Shown here in pieces: positions 2,274 to 9,560 of a stretch of 11,825 bases of DNA. Numbering within the stretch: position 1 is the stretch's first letter; the number at the start of each line of letters is the position of its first letter. The notes below the pieces were generated by a model. It was not told the DNA's origin, searched no databases, and saw only the letters and a program-made list of their open reading frames with translations. The position numbers and the translations under genes are program-made. Origin of the DNA: a virus (taxonomy: Duplodnaviria > Heunggongvirae > Uroviricota > Caudoviricetes); the IMG/VR virus record IMGVR_UViG_2778261009_000010, positions 1 through 11,825 of that record. One strand, 5' to 3'.

Positions 2274-2291
2274 TATGCGTGGAAACGCATA
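2274..2291 (-). terminator. Hairpin between nutR and cII, possible tR1-like element
   Basis: Inverted repeat tatgcgt/acgcata with 4-nt loop; only a short U-stretch follows on the minus strand, so if functional it is probably weak or Rho-assisted. Confidence 0.25.
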
Positions 2292-2320: not shown

Positions 2321-2367
2321 TCGCTTTTCAGCGACGTAGGACGAATGTCCGTTGTTACAAAGAGCGG
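2321..2367 (-). promoter_or_regulatory. nutR candidate (boxA plus two stem-loops) downstream of cro
   Basis: Minus strand reads cGCTCTTTgtAACAACGgacattcgtcCTACGTcGCTGAAAAGCga: a boxA-like GCTCTTT, then a short hairpin (ggac/gtcc), then a 5-bp stem with GAAA loop. Near-duplicate of the element upstream of N on the plus strand. Confidence 0.55.
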
Positions 2368-2373
2368 GGTTAC

Positions 2374-2601
2374 TTATGCTGCCAGAAGGTTCTTTTTGCT
2401 TATTTCAAGCAATTCGCTTGCTTGATATTTGCCACCAGAAATCTCTTCGATTTTTGAGGCGTATTTCGTTTTCCCAAAAAACTCAGTCTTAGGGAGGAAG
2501 CCGTTTTTGAGCCACTTATAGACAGCCCTTTCGCTAACTCCACAAGCCTTCGCAACTTCAGGGATGCCGACACCTTTAATCGGCTCATCAAGATTTTGCA
2601 T
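2374..2601 (-). CDS. cro: Cro-like HTH repressor, non-lambda allele
   Basis: 75 aa, first gene transcribed divergently from the cI-like repressor; HTH segment VAKACGVSERAVYKWLKNG. Confidence 0.7.
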   Translation of the reverse strand: MQNLDEPIKGVGIPEVAKACGVSERAVYKWLKNGFLPKTEFFGKTKYASKIEEISGGKYQASELLEISKKNLLAA

Positions 2602-2680
2602 AGGAATATCCCTTTTTCGTACTTTTAGTACGCATTATGGTTGAACTGAAAGTTTTTGCAAGTGCTTTAGTATCGTACTC
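2602..2680. promoter_or_regulatory. OR region: divergent pR / pRM promoters with operator-like palindromes
   Basis: Minus-strand pR candidate: -35 TTGCAA (2656-2661), 16-bp spacer, -10 CATAAT (complement of 2634-2639). Palindrome CGTACT-ttt-AGTACG (2618-2632) overlaps the predicted pR start; second palindrome AGTA-tcg-TACT (2669-2679) lies just upstream of the cI ATG. The cI ATG at 2681 has no Shine-Dalgarno, consistent with a leaderless pRM transcript as in lambda. Confidence 0.6.
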
Positions 2681-3391
2681 ATGGTTCAGAATGAAAAAGT
2701 GCGCAAAGAATTCGCCCAGCGGCTAGCGCAAGCCTGTAAAGAAGCTGGTCTTGATGAACATGGTAGGGGTATGGCCATAGCCCGTGCCCTTTCTCTTTCG
2801 TCCAAAGGCGTTAGCAAATGGTTTAATGCTGAGTCTTTACCGCGTCAGGAAAAAATGAATGCGCTTGCGAAATTTCTAAACGTTGATGTTGTTTGGCTTC
2901 AGCACGGCACTTCGTTAAATGGAGCGAATGATGAAGATAATACTCTTTCATTTGTTGGCAAATTAAAAAAAGGGTTAGTGCGCGTGGTTGGTGAGGCAAT
3001 TCTTGGTGTTGATGGTGCCATCGAGATGACCGAAGAGCGCGATGGGTGGCTCAAGATTTATAGTGATGATCCAGATGCCTTTGGTCTTCGTGTGAAAGGA
3101 GACAGCATGTGGCCCAGAATAAAATCAGGAGAATATGTACTCATTGAGCCTAACACCAAAGTATTCCCGGGGGATGAGGTGTTTGTCAGAACCGTTGAAG
3201 GACACAACATGATCAAGATTCTTGGCTATGACAGAGATGGAGAATACCAATTTACAAGCATCAACCAGGACCACAGGCCAATAACGTTACCTTATCATCA
3301 AGTAGCAAAGGTGGAGTATGTGGCTGGTATTCTGAAGCAATCTCGTCATCTGGATGACATCGAGGCAAGGGAGTGGCTGAAAAGTTTGTGA
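2681..3391 (+). CDS. cI: CI-like prophage repressor (N-terminal HTH, C-terminal S24/LexA-type autopeptidase domain), non-lambda immunity
   Basis: 236 aa; divergent from cro; C-terminal domain carries GDSMWPRIKSGEYVLIEP (Ser nucleophile motif) and a downstream MIKIL lysine, typical of LexA/CI family. Confidence 0.9.
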   Translation: MVQNEKVRKEFAQRLAQACKEAGLDEHGRGMAIARALSLSSKGVSKWFNAESLPRQEKMNALAKFLNVDVVWLQHGTSLNGANDEDNTLSFVGKLKKGLVRVVGEAILGVDGAIEMTEERDGWLKIYSDDPDAFGLRVKGDSMWPRIKSGEYVLIEPNTKVFPGDEVFVRTVEGHNMIKILGYDRDGEYQFTSINQDHRPITLPYHQVAKVEYVAGILKQSRHLDDIEAREWLKSL

Positions 3392-3497: not shown

Positions 3498-3502
3498 ATT
3501 TG

Positions 3503-3835
3503 ATGAGAGGCGTTATGGAACCGGTCAAAATTAAACCATCTGTGGATTATATTGAAACCTATGCGGACTTCGCTAGTTTTGCTCCACTACCGGGAGCGGA
3601 AAAAAATCTCATTTGTATACATTTTATCGCAAACAAGTCAATACCTGCGGTACTATCCCAAAATGATATACCAGATCAACCAGGTAGAGCGAATATGCAG
3701 ATAGGCTCTGTAAATGAACTCAATCAGCAATGCACTGTGATAATGCCAATGGCACAACTAAAGGCTCTTCAGGAGAATATAGTTCTTCTTTTCGAACAAT
3801 TAGAGGCACAAAACTCTAATGGAGCGAAGTCGTAA
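3503..3835 (+). CDS. Hypothetical small protein, first gene of the cargo operon in the rexA position (start ambiguous: ATG 3503 or ATG 3515)
   Basis: ORF in the same orientation as cI; GAGAGG (3505-3510) precedes ATG 3515; stop overlaps the next start (TAATG at 3833-3837). No resemblance to lambda RexA that I can recognise. Confidence 0.6.
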   Translation: MRGVMEPVKIKPSVDYIETYADFASFAPLPGAEKNLICIHFIANKSIPAVLSQNDIPDQPGRANMQIGSVNELNQQCTVIMPMAQLKALQENIVLLFEQLEAQNSNGAKS

Positions 3836-4518
3836 TGCAACAACCGGAAGAAGTAGGTGATTTAACTATTACTTACAAAACATCAAGTATTGTTAAACCA
3901 CTGCAAGTTTCCCTGAATAACGTTAATACTCGCGATTTCATGATGTTCATGGAAACAGCAAAAGGTAATCTGTTTTCTACGCCTATTTCCTCTTATTCAC
4001 CAAAAAACATGGTGGATGATGCGACCAATTCCCAGCTAACTGCTACAATCGTAGATAAAGGAGGGGTTGCCGATTGTAAAGGACAATCTAATGTTATCCC
4101 ACCGTACGAGGAAACTCCTATACAGGGAACCGCAATGTCCGATTTGAGCAGAAACGAAATACAGGCACTTCTGAAGGCAAATAAAGCTGAAGTGGATGCA
4201 GTGGCCTCAAAAATGCAGGCTGATATGGCCAAATGGCGTGAACTAATGGCTTCAGATATAAAGGAGATGAAGCATTTAGTTGTTACTCAGCACGAACAAA
4301 TCAACAGTCGTCTGGACATACAATCGAGTAGAATTGAGAGTGCCCTTGACTCCCAATCAAAAAAGATCGATGCAGCTCTTTCTGTTCAAGAGGCAAAGTT
4401 AGAAGGTAAGCTTAGTGATGTTAAGCTTGATATAATCAAATGGGCCCTTGGCTTGCCAGCATTAGCATTTGCTGTATATAAAATCTACGGATTGCTCTCT
4501 GGAGTCTCAACCCCCTAA
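3835..4518 (+). CDS. Hypothetical coiled-coil protein with a single C-terminal transmembrane helix (tail-anchored), second gene of the cargo operon in the rexB position
   Basis: 227 aa; residues about 105-200 are rich in heptad-like charged/hydrophobic pattern (EIQALLKANKAEVDAVASKMQADMAKWRELMASDIKEMK...); C-terminus WALGLPALAFAVYKIYGLL is a 19-residue hydrophobic segment; followed directly by a strong intrinsic terminator. Confidence 0.7.
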   Translation: MQQPEEVGDLTITYKTSSIVKPLQVSLNNVNTRDFMMFMETAKGNLFSTPISSYSPKNMVDDATNSQLTATIVDKGGVADCKGQSNVIPPYEETPIQGTAMSDLSRNEIQALLKANKAEVDAVASKMQADMAKWRELMASDIKEMKHLVVTQHEQINSRLDIQSSRIESALDSQSKKIDAALSVQEAKLEGKLSDVKLDIIKWALGLPALAFAVYKIYGLLSGVSTP

Positions 4519-4523
4519 TACAC

Positions 4524-4550
4524 ACCCGGCCTCAGTGCCGGGTTTTCTTT
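4524..4550 (+). terminator. Rho-independent terminator ending the cI / cargo operon
   Basis: Stem cccggc (4525-4530), loop ctcagt, stem gccggg (4537-4542), then TTTTCTTT (4543-4550). Confidence 0.7.
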
Positions 4551-4740: not shown

Positions 4741-4790
4741 TATGGTTCTTGATTGTATCGAACCAATAGTTCATTATTATCACCATCAGC
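4741..4790 (+). promoter_or_regulatory. Putative OL / pL region
   Basis: TTTCGTACTTATGGTTC (4741-4757) repeats the TTCGTACTT...ATGGTT motif of the OR region. Candidate -35 TTGATT (4758-4763), 17-bp spacer, -10 CATTAT (4781-4786), about 35 nt upstream of the nutL candidate and about 180 nt upstream of N. Inverted repeat TGGTTC(n10)GAACCA (4752-4773) spans the -35. Confidence 0.4.
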
Positions 4791-4823: not shown

Positions 4824-4870
4824 GGCTCTTTAAACAACGTCGAACTCTCGACTACGTGGCTGAAAAGCCA
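4824..4870 (+). promoter_or_regulatory. nutL candidate (boxA plus two stem-loops) upstream of N
   Basis: gGCTCTTTaAACAACGtcgaactctcgaCTACGTgGCTGAAAAGCca: boxA-like GCTCTTT (4825-4832), hairpin gtcga/tcgac (4839-4852), and 5-bp stem with GAAA loop (4857-4870). Matches the minus-strand element at 2321-2367. Confidence 0.55.
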
Positions 4871-4968: not shown

Positions 4969-5241
4969 ATGTCCAGAAAAACAAAATTTAAAGGCACCGC
5001 AGCTTCTCGCCGTAGAGCCCGTCGCGCAAATCTGCAAAGTCAGGAGGCGATCAGCTCCGACAAGCTACACAGACCAACCCCTTCACGAGTGGTCTTGCAA
5101 TGCAAGCGCAAACCAGCAATGAGAGCAGAAGTTATAACTCTGACAACGTTGACCAGAAAATATGAAGGTTCAACTTGTCTTCCGAACGTAGCTCTTTACG
5201 CGGCAGGCTACCGGAAATCAAAACAACTGACGGCGAGATGA
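4969..5241 (+). CDS. N: N-like transcription antiterminator (P22 gene 24 / phage 21 N type) with arginine-rich motif
   Basis: RBS GGGAGGAA (4958-4965) then ATG 4969; 90 aa MSRKTKFKGTAASRRRARRANLQ... with N-terminal arginine-rich RNA-binding motif; C-terminus VALYAAGYRKSKQLTAR resembles the P22 gene-24 protein C-terminus as I recall it. The track ORF 4897-5241 is an upstream extension of the same frame. Confidence 0.8.
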   Translation: MSRKTKFKGTAASRRRARRANLQSQEAISSDKLHRPTPSRVVLQCKRKPAMRAEVITLTTLTRKYEGSTCLPNVALYAAGYRKSKQLTAR

Positions 5242-5257
5242 TAAATTAATTTGCTAA

Positions 5258-5839
5258 TTACTTGTTTTTGCCATGCTTATCCTGAGCGATAAGTTCATCC
5301 ATAAGACTGTCTTTCTTCCCAGCAAACCTAATGTAGCACTCATTTCTATAGCGTTCCGGGATAACAAAACGGTCGATTTCAGGATATCCAGTAGCAGAAG
5401 GTACCCGAATAAGAAGCCCTTTTTCGAGCAATGAGATTGCTTCAGGGCTTCCCTTTTCTGTCTTTAGCTGGTTATTAGCGGCTACAGCGAATGCCAAATA
5501 CGCTCTTTCTCCAAGAGTTAACGAATCAAACAAATCTTGCACGTATTTCTCTTCTTTAGATTTGCGCTTCTGAGCAGCGAATATCTCAATTCTTTCAGTC
5601 ACAGCGTGATAAGCGGAATTAACAACGCCGTTAAGCACATAGCTAACGCAAAACAACAGGATGTAATACATCCAGTAATGAGGAAGGATTTCTGGATTAT
5701 GCAGGTTTATCCATTCTTTTACGCTTACAGGCATAACAATAATCAATATGATCAGGATGATTAGCATATGAATCAACTGTTTAAGTGTCATTCCTTGCAG
5801 GAAAAAATGCATTAGTTCCTGCCACCATGAGTTGTTCAT
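5258..5839 (-). CDS. sieB: SieB-like superinfection exclusion membrane protein
   Basis: 193 aa, convergent with N, same position and orientation as lambda sieB relative to N/ea10; two N-terminal hydrophobic helices (LIHMLIILIILIIVMPVSV; HYWMYYILLFCVSYVLNGVV). Confidence 0.6.
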   Translation of the reverse strand: MNNSWWQELMHFFLQGMTLKQLIHMLIILIILIIVMPVSVKEWINLHNPEILPHYWMYYILLFCVSYVLNGVVNSAYHAVTERIEIFAAQKRKSKEEKYVQDLFDSLTLGERAYLAFAVAANNQLKTEKGSPEAISLLEKGLLIRVPSATGYPEIDRFVIPERYRNECYIRFAGKKDSLMDELIAQDKHGKNK

Positions 5840-6518: not shown

Positions 6519-6540
6519 ATGTATAAATAAGGAGCACACC

Positions 6541-6705
6541 ATGCAATATGCCATTGCAGGGTGGCCTGTTGCTGGCTGCCCTTCCGAATCTTTACTTGAA
6601 CGAATCACCCGTAAATTACGTGACGGATGGAAACGCCTTATCGACATACTTAATCAGCCAGGAGTCCCAAAAAATGGATCAAACACTTATGGCTATCCAG
6701 ACTAA
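6541..6705 (+). CDS. cIII: CIII (inhibitor of FtsH-mediated CII degradation)
   Basis: Manual translation from ATG 6541 (RBS AAGGAG 6529-6534): [54 protein letters not shown], 54 aa, which I recognise as lambda CIII. Below the 60-aa cutoff of the ORF track. Confidence 0.9.
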   Translation: MQYAIAGWPVAGCPSESLLERITRKLRDGWKRLIDILNQPGVPKNGSNTYGYPD

Positions 6706-8656: not shown

Positions 8657-8811
8657 CGCATCCTCACGATAATATCCGGGTAGGCGCGATCACTTTCGTC
8701 TACTCCGTTACAAAGCGAGGCTGGGTATTTCCCGGCCTTTCTGTTATCCGAAATCCGCTGAAAGCCCAGCGGCTGGCTGAGGAGATAAATAATAAACGGG
8801 AGAGTGTATGA
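8653..8811 (+). CDS. Small hypothetical protein (52 aa), translationally coupled between exo and the 250-aa ORF
   Basis: Manual translation from ATG 8653 (overlapping the exo stop): [52 protein letters not shown]; its stop overlaps the next ATG (ATGA at 8808-8811). Too short for the ORF track. Confidence 0.5.
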
Positions 8812-9560
8812 TTCATTTTCACGGTGGTCCAATAACTCCCGATACCTGTGCGTTGAAAGCCTGGAAAGGCAGACACGCATTCATCAGTTTTGCTAATCCA
8901 GCTCAGATTGATCTGGCTTCCGAAGTCACCCAATCATTTGCTCTTGATAATGGTGCATTCACATTCTGGACAAAAAACAAGGCCGTAGACTGGAATGAAT
9001 ATTACAGATTTGTTGAACGCTGGGGCAATCACCCTCGTTTCTCATTCGCGGTTATCCCGGATGTTATCGGCGGAACCAGTGAAGAGAATGACGCCCTGAT
9101 TGCGGCATGGCCTCACGGTAAATTTATTGGTGCTCCGGTGTGGCACATGAACGAACCAGATGAGCGATTTATTCGTCTGTGCCATGAGTTTCCCCGCGTC
9201 TGCATCGGCTCGATGGGGGAATACGATGCAAAACGACCGAGAGCGTGTCGGGCTAAACTACGCGATCTTATACGTCATGTTGTAGATCAGTACGGCTACC
9301 CAATCACCAAGATTCATGGGTTACGGATGTTAAATAAAGACATTTTTACTCATGTACCGCTTTCGTCTGCAGACAGCACGAACGTCGCAAGAAATATAGG
9401 CATCGACAAATCCTGGGTAGGTTCGCCATATGCTCCCGCAAGTAAAGAAACCCGTACGCAAGTTCTTGTGGAACGCATTGAATCATTCAACAGTGCCAGT
9501 TCACTTAATTACAACGCTGAACGGGACGTCTTTACCCCTCAACTGGCATTCGAAGTGTGA
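8808..9560 (+). CDS. Hypothetical protein (250 aa), accessory gene downstream of exo
   Basis: Long ORF in the operon orientation, start coupled to the preceding small ORF. Not any lambda protein I can recognise. Confidence 0.75.
   Translation: MIHFHGGPITPDTCALKAWKGRHAFISFANPAQIDLASEVTQSFALDNGAFTFWTKNKAVDWNEYYRFVERWGNHPRFSFAVIPDVIGGTSEENDALIAAWPHGKFIGAPVWHMNEPDERFIRLCHEFPRVCIGSMGEYDAKRPRACRAKLRDLIRHVVDQYGYPITKIHGLRMLNKDIFTHVPLSSADSTNVARNIGIDKSWVGSPYAPASKETRTQVLVERIESFNSASSLNYNAERDVFTPQLAFEV

What the first reader, a model, noticed from the sequence alone, without database searches (positions are those of the whole stretch)
4824..4870. Paired nutL / nutR elements with a conserved boxA and two stem-loops, one showing compensatory base changes
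The plus-strand element at 4824-4870 and the minus-strand element at 2321-2367 align as GCTCTTT - AACAACG - hairpin - CTACGT - (N)GCTGAAAAGC(N). Each lies in the correct orientation downstream of its predicted promoter (pL and pR). The first hairpin differs in sequence between the two copies (gtcga/tcgac vs ggac/gtcc) but base-pairs in both, which implies selection on structure. The second is a 5-bp stem closed by a GAAA loop. Together with the arginine-rich-motif N protein this makes a complete N-antitermination set; the two-hairpin arrangement differs from the single boxB of lambda.
Basis: seen in the sequence. Interest (0 to 1): 0.55.

Follow-up and report, generated by a model that had tools for sequence, protein, structure and literature searches.

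The report
Phage nutL and nutR antitermination sites
These two short elements are the RNA landing sites (nutL and nutR) that let a lambda-like prophage's N protein carry RNA polymerase through terminators. The two-hairpin layout is real and strongly conserved, but it has already been described and annotated in Shiga-toxin phages.

Summary
Both copies read boxA, ACAACG, a small hairpin, CUACG, then a 5-bp hairpin with a GAAA loop. Each lies downstream of its promoter: nutL between pL and N, nutR between cro and cII.

The N protein is 99% identical to VT2-Sakai N. The VT2-Sakai GenBank record annotates the same stretch as "putative N-utilization leftward". The two-hairpin nut layout is published for the sibling phage H-19B, and 933W carries it as well.

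In 50 distinct nut sites from about 230 related loci (Escherichia, Salmonella, Klebsiella, Enterobacter, Pantoea, Tatumella), both hairpins show extensive compensatory change. 96% of pair cells are paired, against 71% in shuffles.

Lambda and P22 nut spacers have no such hairpin.

One refinement: H-19B and 933W use a GACAA pentaloop boxB, identical to P22 nutL. This window's N class always pairs with a GAAA or GCAA tetraloop. That specificity class was predicted for phage epsilon34 but I found no experimental study of it.

Verdict: a real feature, correctly interpreted, already known. Low to moderate interest.

The parts
4749..4777 (+). pL promoter candidate (TTGATT-17 nt-CATTAT); transcript start about 4785 (ATCAGCAGGACGC)
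   Evidence: Read from the sequence. The start motif is shared with the lambda and P22 pL transcripts and lies at the position annotated as pL in VT2-Sakai. It scores 8/12, below the scan threshold.
4824..4837 (+). nutL boxA (GGCTCTTTAAACAA), near the rrn/P22-type consensus GCTCTTTAACAA
   Evidence: Conserved in Escherichia and Pantoea relatives but absent from Klebsiella and Enterobacter nutL, where only ACAACG remains.
4839..4852 (+). nutL spacer hairpin (GUCGA / loop ACUC / UCGAC), closed by the invariant G-C pair
   Evidence: Folds. Among close relatives only the loop varies: CTC, ACAC, ACTC, ATC, GCAC. Stems covary across genera.
4853..4856 (+). Conserved single-stranded linker UACG between the two hairpins
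   Evidence: Invariant in all 50 distinct sites of alignment A5, although the collecting regex required CTACG. One nutR variant reads CCACG.
4857..4870 (+). nutL boxB: 5-bp stem UGGCU/AGCCA with a GAAA tetraloop
   Evidence: The bottom two pairs covary; the top three pairs and the loop are nearly invariant.
4969..5241 (+). N antitermination protein, 90 aa, arginine-rich motif GTAASRRRARRANLQ
   Evidence: PF25694 at 7.9e-32; 99% identical to VT2-Sakai N; phrog_271.
2634..2661 (-). pR promoter (TTGCAA-16-CATAAT), upstream of cro
   Evidence: Promoter scan. Same position as the annotated pR of 933W.
2374..2601 (-). cro, between pR and nutR
   Evidence: ORF list; helix-turn-helix and P22_Cro Pfam hits; about 95% DNA identity to 933W cro.
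2352..2366 (-). nutR boxA (CGCTCTTTGTAACAA)
2339..2350 (-). nutR spacer hairpin (GGAC / loop AUUC / GUCC)
   Evidence: pair probability 0.99. Covarying stems GGCC/GGCC, GGCA/UGCC and GGGC/GCCC occur in relatives.
2321..2334 (-). nutR boxB: UCGCU/AGCGA stem with a GAAA tetraloop
1939..2235 (-). cII, the first gene downstream of nutR whose expression depends on read-through
   Evidence: PF05269 Phage_CII at 1.8e-31.

Best explanation
These are the nutL and nutR sites of a lambdoid prophage. They act as RNA.

After transcription from pL or pR, the GAAA-tetraloop boxB hairpin is bound by the arginine-rich N-terminus of the 90-aa N protein. N recruits NusA, which contacts the spacer. Where present, boxA can recruit NusB/S10. 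The complex stays tethered to RNA polymerase and makes it resistant to Rho-dependent and intrinsic terminators. Delayed-early genes are then expressed: leftward through N, cIII, gam, bet and exo; rightward through cII, O and P.

The small hairpin between boxA and boxB is a structured insertion in the spacer. It is closed by an invariant G-C pair and flanked by conserved single-stranded ACAAC and UACG. When folded, it is looped out and leaves a lambda-length single-stranded spacer. When unfolded, it would lengthen the spacer or mispair with boxB. That is why its pairing is conserved but its sequence is not.

What is shown and what is inferred:
- Shown here: anatomy, orientation, covariation of both stems, and strict co-occurrence of N arginine-motif type with boxB loop type.
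- From the literature on sibling phage H-19B: N needs NusA (and NusG in vitro). N with NusA/G protects the spacer and boxB but not boxA. Rho also binds the nutR spacer.
- Inferred: recognition of the tetraloop by this N allele, and the passive role of the spacer hairpin.
For: - The elements are verified at the stated coordinates and are not expected by chance.
- Orientation and position relative to pL/N and pR/cro/cII are correct. The same positions are annotated as nutL and nutR in VT2-Sakai and 933W.
- N is a PF25694 protein, 99% identical to VT2-Sakai N.
- All 80 loci with 97-99% identical N carry the sites, and nutL variation is confined to the spacer loop.
- In 50 distinct sites from several genera, 96.2% of pair cells are paired against 71.0% in shuffles (0 of 500 reach it). 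The covariation score is 0.61 against 0.14. Slid controls give 23-47% paired. Four of 5 spacer pairs and 3 of 5 boxB pairs change on both sides.
- RNAalifold predicts the same helices.
- G-U wobble pairs occur in the spacer stem, which points to RNA on this strand rather than a DNA palindrome.
- N arginine-motif type and boxB loop type co-vary without exception. RRRxRRAxLQ-type N goes with GAAA or GCAA in both nut sites. H-19B/933W-type N (RSRRRERLKAK) goes with GACAA in both.
- This window has a 933W-like cro but a tetraloop nutR that matches its own N.
Against: - No experiment exists, as far as I could find, on this N allele or on its tetraloop boxB.
- For nutL the predicted minimum-energy fold pairs boxA with the 3' half of boxB (-15.1 versus -12.8 kcal/mol). 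At equilibrium the boxB pair probability is only 0.03. The functional fold therefore has to rely on co-transcriptional folding and protein binding.
- Single-sequence z-scores are modest.
- pL fell below the promoter scan threshold.
- The sites used for covariation were collected with a regex that required CTACG and a boxB-like core. Conservation of those parts is partly built in. The spacer stem and the two bottom boxB pairs were not constrained.
- As I recall the abstract of Neely & Friedman 2000 (not readable here), deleting the H-19B spacer dyad had little effect. Any positive function of the hairpin is therefore unproven.
Confidence: 0.93

Rival explanations
1. The spacer hairpin has an active role of its own. 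It could be a docking or positioning element for NusA, or a shield for the Rho-loading (rut) sequences that overlap nutR. That would make it more than a neutral insertion that merely has to stay folded.
For: The hairpin is kept with compensatory changes in at least 10 different stem sequences, in both nutL and nutR, across six genera. That is a lot of conservation for a dispensable element. In H-19B both NusA and Rho footprint on the nutR spacer. Klebsiella and Enterobacter nutL sites have lost boxA but keep the hairpin and its flanks.
Against: The hairpin is equally conserved in nutL, where the literature reports no overlapping Rho terminator. Loop sequence and stem length (3-6 bp) vary freely, which argues against sequence-specific recognition. 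As I recall the abstract of Neely & Friedman 2000 (not verified here), deletion of the dyad in H-19B had little effect.
Confidence: 0.25
2. The palindromes are DNA-level protein-binding sites, such as an operator or a recombination site, and not RNA structures.
For: The spacer stems are perfect short DNA palindromes. One of them, read on the opposite strand, is picked up as a terminator-like site.
Against: The stem sequences differ completely between nutL and nutR and among phages, while complementarity is kept. A sequence-specific DNA-binding protein would not tolerate that. G-U pairs, which would be A-C mismatches on the other strand, occur at three stem positions. The sites are always on the transcribed strand downstream of pL or pR.
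Confidence: 0.02
3. The two hairpins act like the put sites of HK022, modifying RNA polymerase directly without an N protein.
For: Two adjacent stem-loops lie downstream of each early promoter.
Against: An intact N gene with an arginine-rich motif sits next to nutL, and its motif type co-varies with the boxB loop. The hairpins are 4-6 bp, far smaller than the put stem-loops (my own knowledge of put). H-19B N-dependence is shown experimentally for the sibling sites. No Rfam family matched.
Confidence: 0.02
4. The resemblance between the two elements is chance, or simple duplication without function.
For: None beyond the small size of the elements.
Against: There are 2 exact hits of a 20-nt core against 0 expected. 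The elements are conserved and covary in about 230 loci.
Confidence: 0.01

Closest known systems
nutL/nutR of Shiga-toxin phage VT2-Sakai (and other phages with the 90-aa N)
   Same: The N protein is 99% identical. nutL is identical except for one extra base in the spacer-hairpin loop. The identical nutR occurs in many such phages. The stretch is annotated 'putative N-utilization leftward' in AP000422.
   Different: Essentially nothing. This window has a different, 933W-like cro next to the same nutR.
nut sites of H-19B / 933W (127-aa N), studied by Neely & Friedman 2000 and by the Sen laboratory (PMC3526286)
   Same: The architecture is the same: (boxA)-ACAAYG-spacer hairpin-CUACG-boxB. The nutR spacer hairpin GGAC-AUUC-GUCC is identical. 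Two hairpins in nutR are stated in PMC3526286. The N proteins share a Pfam family and an N-terminal M(S/T)R(R/K)TxFxG motif.
   Different: In H-19B/933W, boxB is GCGCUGACAAAGCGC with a GACAA pentaloop; here it is a GAAA tetraloop. The arginine motifs differ: RSRRRERLKAK versus ASRRRARRANLQ. The N proteins are only about 41% identical overall. 933W nutR boxA is degenerate (CGCTATTTT) whereas here it is CGCTCTTT.
Lambda nutL/nutR
   Same: boxA, spacer and boxB come in the same order at the same map positions. The pL transcript start is shared. boxB has a 5-bp stem and a purine-rich G...A loop.
   Different: The lambda spacer is 8-9 nt with no hairpin. The lambda boxB loop is a pentaloop (GAAAA or GAAGA). 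Lambda N was not retrieved as a homologue of this N.
P22 nutL/nutR with gp24
   Same: The N C-terminus is shared (LPNVALYAAGYRKSKQLTAR). The boxA type is the same, CGCTCTTTA.
   Different: The P22 spacer is 9-10 nt without a hairpin. The loops are pentaloops GACAA. The arginine motif is different (GNAKTRRHERRRKLAIER).
Salmonella phage epsilon34 / g341c N and NutR
   Same: Same tetraloop class. g341c nutR reads ACAACGGACATTCGTCCTACGTCGCTGAAAAGCGA and its boxB is annotated 'Putative NutR'. The arginine motif is RRRERRAALQ.
   Different: N is 120 aa with a different middle region. There is no GCTCTT boxA at nutR. The epsilon34 genome paper only predicts 'a novel BoxB specificity' (PMC2629481).

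Membership tests
Lambdoid N-utilization (nut) site | Lies on the transcribed strand downstream of pL (before N) and downstream of pR (between cro and cII) | tested here: met
   Matches the annotated positions in 933W, VT2-Sakai and lambda.
Lambdoid N-utilization (nut) site | boxA element resembling CGCTCTT(T)A upstream of boxB | tested here: met
   GGCTCTTTAAACAA (nutL) and CGCTCTTTGTAACAA (nutR); compare lambda CGCTCTTA and P22 CGCTCTTTA.
Lambdoid N-utilization (nut) site | boxB: a short hairpin with a G-initiated, purine-rich GNRA-like loop | tested here: met
   5-bp stem with a GAAA loop in both copies. The stem covaries and the loop is conserved in 50 distinct sites.
Lambdoid N-utilization (nut) site | A cognate N protein with an N-terminal arginine-rich motif is encoded next to nutL, and its motif type matches the boxB type | tested here: met
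   PF25694 hit. Motif type and loop type co-occur without exception in the loci examined.
Lambdoid N-utilization (nut) site | N-dependent read-through of downstream terminators | not testable with these tools
   Shown experimentally only for the sibling H-19B N/nutR (PMC3526286).
H-19B-type nut site (structured spacer) | Dyad symmetry (hairpin) in the spacer between boxA and boxB, absent from lambda and P22 | tested here: met
   933W has the same hairpin. Lambda and P22 lack it.
H-19B-type nut site (structured spacer) | boxB identical in type to H-19B/933W (GACAA pentaloop, P22-like) | tested here: not met
   The window has a GAAA tetraloop. All 933W-type loci have GACAA. It therefore shares the architecture but belongs to a different specificity class.
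H-19B-type nut site (structured spacer) | Reduced host-factor requirement (independent of NusB, S10 and boxA) | not testable with these tools
   Only indirect support: relatives in Klebsiella and Enterobacter lack boxA at nutL, and boxA is not protected in H-19B footprints.
HK022 put site (factor-independent antitermination RNA) | No N-type antiterminator; two larger stem-loops act directly on RNA polymerase | tested here: not met
   An intact N gene is present. The hairpins are 4-5 bp. No Rfam family matched. The size of put stem-loops is from my own knowledge.

The most novel reading that the evidence does not exclude
The GAAA/GCAA-tetraloop boxB, paired with the RRRxRRAxLQ arginine motif, is a distinct N-boxB specificity class that has not been characterised experimentally. 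It is widespread in Enterobacterales: VT2-Sakai-type Stx phages, epsilon34-like Salmonella phages, and Klebsiella, Enterobacter, Pantoea and Tatumella prophages.

Its boxB would be a true GNRA tetraloop, lacking the extruded loop base that lambda and P22 pentaloops present. N-NusA coupling could therefore differ from the lambda paradigm.

The covarying spacer hairpin may have a real function that single-copy reporter assays in H-19B missed.
Probability: 0.3. Interest if true: 0.4.

Novelty: already known. Interest (0 to 1): 0.2.

Why it matters
For genome annotation, this confirms a complete and coherent early-antitermination module (pL-nutL-N and pR-cro-nutR-cII) in this prophage.

N-dependent antitermination is part of the early regulatory cascade of lambdoid phages, including the Shiga-toxin phages that carry this same N allele. 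Knowing which N/boxB specificity class a prophage uses is therefore useful background.

The comparative result adds two things to what is published:
- Phylogenetic covariation shows the spacer hairpin is under selection in nature.
- Two boxB loop classes, tetraloop and pentaloop, segregate perfectly with two N arginine-motif classes on the same nut scaffold.

This is a natural specificity switch made by a one-base loop insertion, and it would be easy to test.

Tried and rejected
- Rfam, at the permissive E-value threshold, has no family for nut or boxB. It found only the cIII thermoregulator and a chance snoRNA hit.
- A fixed-spacing pattern covering the whole element found nothing, because the two copies differ by indels in boxA and the hairpin. 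The shorter core worked.
- MAFFT on the two copies alone misaligned boxA.
- My first two regex scans for boxB failed because of greedy loop matching and were rewritten.
- Neely & Friedman 2000 is not held in the library. Its content is cited from the title and from my memory of the abstract only.
- Searches for open papers on the VT2-Sakai-type nut or a natural tetraloop boxB found nothing specific.
- No solved structure matches this N by sequence.
- The genome-contig scan gave only 9 loci. Diversity came mainly from the IMG/VR scans.
- Rejected readings: DNA-level palindrome, put-like RNA, and chance. See the rival explanations.

Full report
**The observation**

The window is the immunity and early region of a lambdoid prophage, drawn inverted relative to the lambda map:
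- P (309-1010, -), O (1007-1906, -), cII (1939-2235, -), cro (2374-2601, -)
- cI (2681-3391, +) and two unknown ORFs in the rex position (3500-4518, +)
- a terminator (4524-4543), then N (4969-5241, +)
- sieB (5258-5839, -), followed by cIII, bet and exo

- nutL (+): GGCTCTTTAAACAACG-TCGA-ACTC-TCGA-CTACG-TGGCT-GAAA-AGCCA
- nutR (-): CGCTCTTTGTAACAACG-GAC-ATTC-GTC-CTACG-TCGCT-GAAA-AGCGA

The 20-nt core CTACGTNGCTGAAAAGCNAG occurs twice, once per strand, with none expected in shuffles.

Each copy folds into two small hairpins. The spacer hairpin is closed by the G of ACAACG and the C of CUACG.

pR (2661-2634, -) was found by the promoter scan. pL (TTGATT-17-CATTAT, 4749-4777) is below that scan's threshold. 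However, it precedes the transcript start ATCAGCAGGACGC that lambda and P22 share, and it sits where VT2-Sakai annotates pL.

**What it is**

The protein downstream of nutL hits Pfam N_peptide (PF25694, 7.9e-32). It is 99% identical to N of the Shiga-toxin phage VT2-Sakai.

The VT2-Sakai GenBank record annotates the homologous 41 nt as "putative N-utilization leftward". That sequence differs from the window only by one base in the spacer-hairpin loop. The 933W record annotates both nutL and nutR at the same map positions.

In 80 IMG/VR loci with 97-99% identical N, both sites are present wherever the flank was retrieved. All nutL variation falls in the loop of the spacer hairpin (CTC, ACAC, ACTC, ATC, GCAC), while the stem is invariant.

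**Wider comparison**

N homologues down to 35% identity were collected. They come from Escherichia, Salmonella, Klebsiella, Enterobacter, Pantoea and Tatumella.

Upstream of N, and on the opposite strand upstream of cII, they carry the same scaffold: ACAAYG, hairpin, CUACG, boxB.

The spacer stems are very different in sequence but always complementary:
- GUCGA/UCGAC, GGUGA/UCACC, GGCGA/UUGCC
- GAUUCA/UGAAUC, GAUUCC/GGAAUC
- GGAC/GUCC, GGCC/GGCC, GGCA/UGCC, GGGC/GCCC

On an alignment of 50 distinct sites, the results were as follows:
- 96.2% of pair cells form standard pairs, against 71.0% in shuffles (0 of 500 reach the observed value).
- The covariation score is 0.61 against 0.14.
- Sliding the 3' partners by 1-3 columns drops pairing to 23-47%.
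- Four of five spacer pairs and three of five boxB pairs change on both sides.

RNAalifold predicts the same two helices independently. G-U pairs in the spacer stem argue for an RNA structure on this strand and against a DNA palindrome.

In boxB the two bottom pairs covary, while the top three pairs (GCU/AGC) and the loop are nearly invariant. That pattern is what one expects if the loop end of the hairpin, rather than its base, carries the sequence-specific contacts.

One caveat applies. The sites were harvested with a regex that required CTACG and a boxB-like core. Conservation of those parts is therefore partly circular. The spacer stem and the bottom boxB pairs were unconstrained.

**Comparison with known systems**

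Lambda and P22 nut sites, read from their GenBank records, have 8-10 nt spacers without a hairpin.

The structured spacer is nevertheless already known. PMC3526286 states that H-19B nutR contains two hairpins. It shows that N with NusA/G protects the spacer and boxB but not boxA, and that Rho also binds the spacer. It cites Neely & Friedman 2000 for these sites. [quoted passage not shown]

I could not read Neely & Friedman 2000. As I recall its abstract, one-arm changes in the dyad inactivate the site, compensatory changes restore it, and deletion of the dyad has little effect.

**A refinement**

H-19B N has the arginine motif 12-RSRRRER-18 and is 127 aa long. That is the 933W type, only about 41% identical to the N in this window.

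The 933W nut sites share the scaffold, and even the same nutR spacer hairpin. Their boxB, however, is GCGCUGACAAAGCGC with a GACAA pentaloop. It is identical to P22 nutL boxB.

Across all loci examined, the association has no exception and no mixed pairs:
- N with ...RRRxRRAxLQ... goes with GAAA (occasionally GCAA) tetraloops in both nut sites.
- N with ...RSRRRERLKAK... goes with GACAA in both nut sites.

The window itself is a natural swap. Its cro is about 95% identical to 933W cro, yet its nutR carries the tetraloop that matches its own N. The differences from 933W in this stretch are concentrated in boxA and in the boxB loop.

The epsilon34 genome paper predicted "a novel BoxB specificity" for an N of this class (PMC2629481). 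I found no experimental work on it and no related solved structure.

**Mechanism**

By established knowledge of N antitermination, boxB RNA binds the arginine-rich N-terminus of N. N recruits NusA to the spacer. NusB/S10 bind boxA. The RNA-tethered complex makes RNA polymerase terminator-resistant.

For the spacer hairpin, I favour a structured insertion that is looped out. It would leave ACAAC and UACG as a lambda-length single-stranded spacer. Unfolding would lengthen the spacer or allow mispairing, which explains selection for pairing without selection for sequence. It also fits the deletion result as I recall it.

An active role, in NusA positioning or in shielding the Rho-loading site, cannot be excluded, and the breadth of conservation gives it some weight.

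A predicted competing fold pairs boxA with the 3' half of boxB. It is more stable for nutL (-15.1 versus -12.8 kcal/mol) and about equal for nutR. The competing pairing cannot form in relatives that lack boxA, so I treat it as a by-product of boxA/boxB sequence composition. It still means the functional fold must be kinetically or protein-driven.

**Verdict**

This is a real feature, correctly interpreted, and already annotated and published for sibling phages. The added value is the covariation evidence and the split into tetraloop and pentaloop specificity classes.

Noticed in passing
window 3500-4518 (+): Two ORFs (about 106-111 aa and 227 aa) sit between cI and the cI-operon terminator, in the position of lambda rexA/rexB. 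The first has no Pfam, PHROG or PADLOC hit. The second matches phrog_14825 (unknown function) and has a weak coiled-coil hit and a hydrophobic C-terminus. Their position in the cI operon makes them candidates for lysogen-expressed genes, possibly an exclusion function.
   Followed up: partly
window 8808-9560 (+): A 250-aa ORF downstream of exo in the early-left operon matches phrog_887, 'queuine tRNA-ribosyltransferase' (4e-99). It may be a DpdA-like 7-deazaguanine DNA-modification enzyme.
   Followed up: no
window 6528-6586 (+): Full-length Rfam match to the lambda cIII thermoregulator (RF01804, 88.5 bits).
   Followed up: no
window 2274-2291 (-): A hairpin UAUGCG-UUUCCA-CGCAUA lies about 30 nt downstream of nutR boxB, without a clear U-run. 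In Salmonella phage g341c, a different hairpin a similar distance downstream of nutR is annotated 'Putative tR'. It is a candidate tR1-associated structure.
   Followed up: no
window 4824-4870 (+): The predicted minimum-energy fold of nutL pairs boxA (GGCUCUUU) with the 3' half of boxB (AAAAGCC), with the spacer hairpin at the tip (-15.1 versus -12.8 kcal/mol for the two-hairpin fold). Relatives that lack boxA cannot form it.
   Followed up: partly
window 2352-2420 (-): There is a mosaic joint at the 5' edge of nutR boxA. Some phages match only cro up to about 2359, and others match only from 2367 (the start of boxA) into cII. nutR therefore travels with the cII side and stays matched to the N allele.
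   Followed up: partly
L083, L086, L087, L089, L106-L127 (nutL upstream of N): Klebsiella and Enterobacter relatives keep ACAACG, the hairpin, CUACG and boxB at nutL but have no GCTCTT boxA. This fits the reduced host-factor requirement named in the title of Neely & Friedman 2000 for H-19B. For L086, L087 and L089 no nutR or lambda-type cII was found in the fetched flank.
   Followed up: partly
L108 6700-7003: One locus has an N gene of this class but no recognisable nutL or pL leader upstream. The region appears to have been replaced. It may be a defective prophage.
   Followed up: no
window 4839-4852 (- strand call): The terminator scan reports the nutL spacer palindrome on the opposite strand, followed by the T-rich complement of boxA. 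This is most likely an artefact of the palindrome and not a terminator.
   Followed up: no
window 4524-4543 (+): A strong intrinsic terminator (7-bp, GC-rich stem followed by a T-run) ends the cI operon just before oL/pL. It matches the annotated terminator for the pRM transcript in VT2-Sakai.
   Followed up: no
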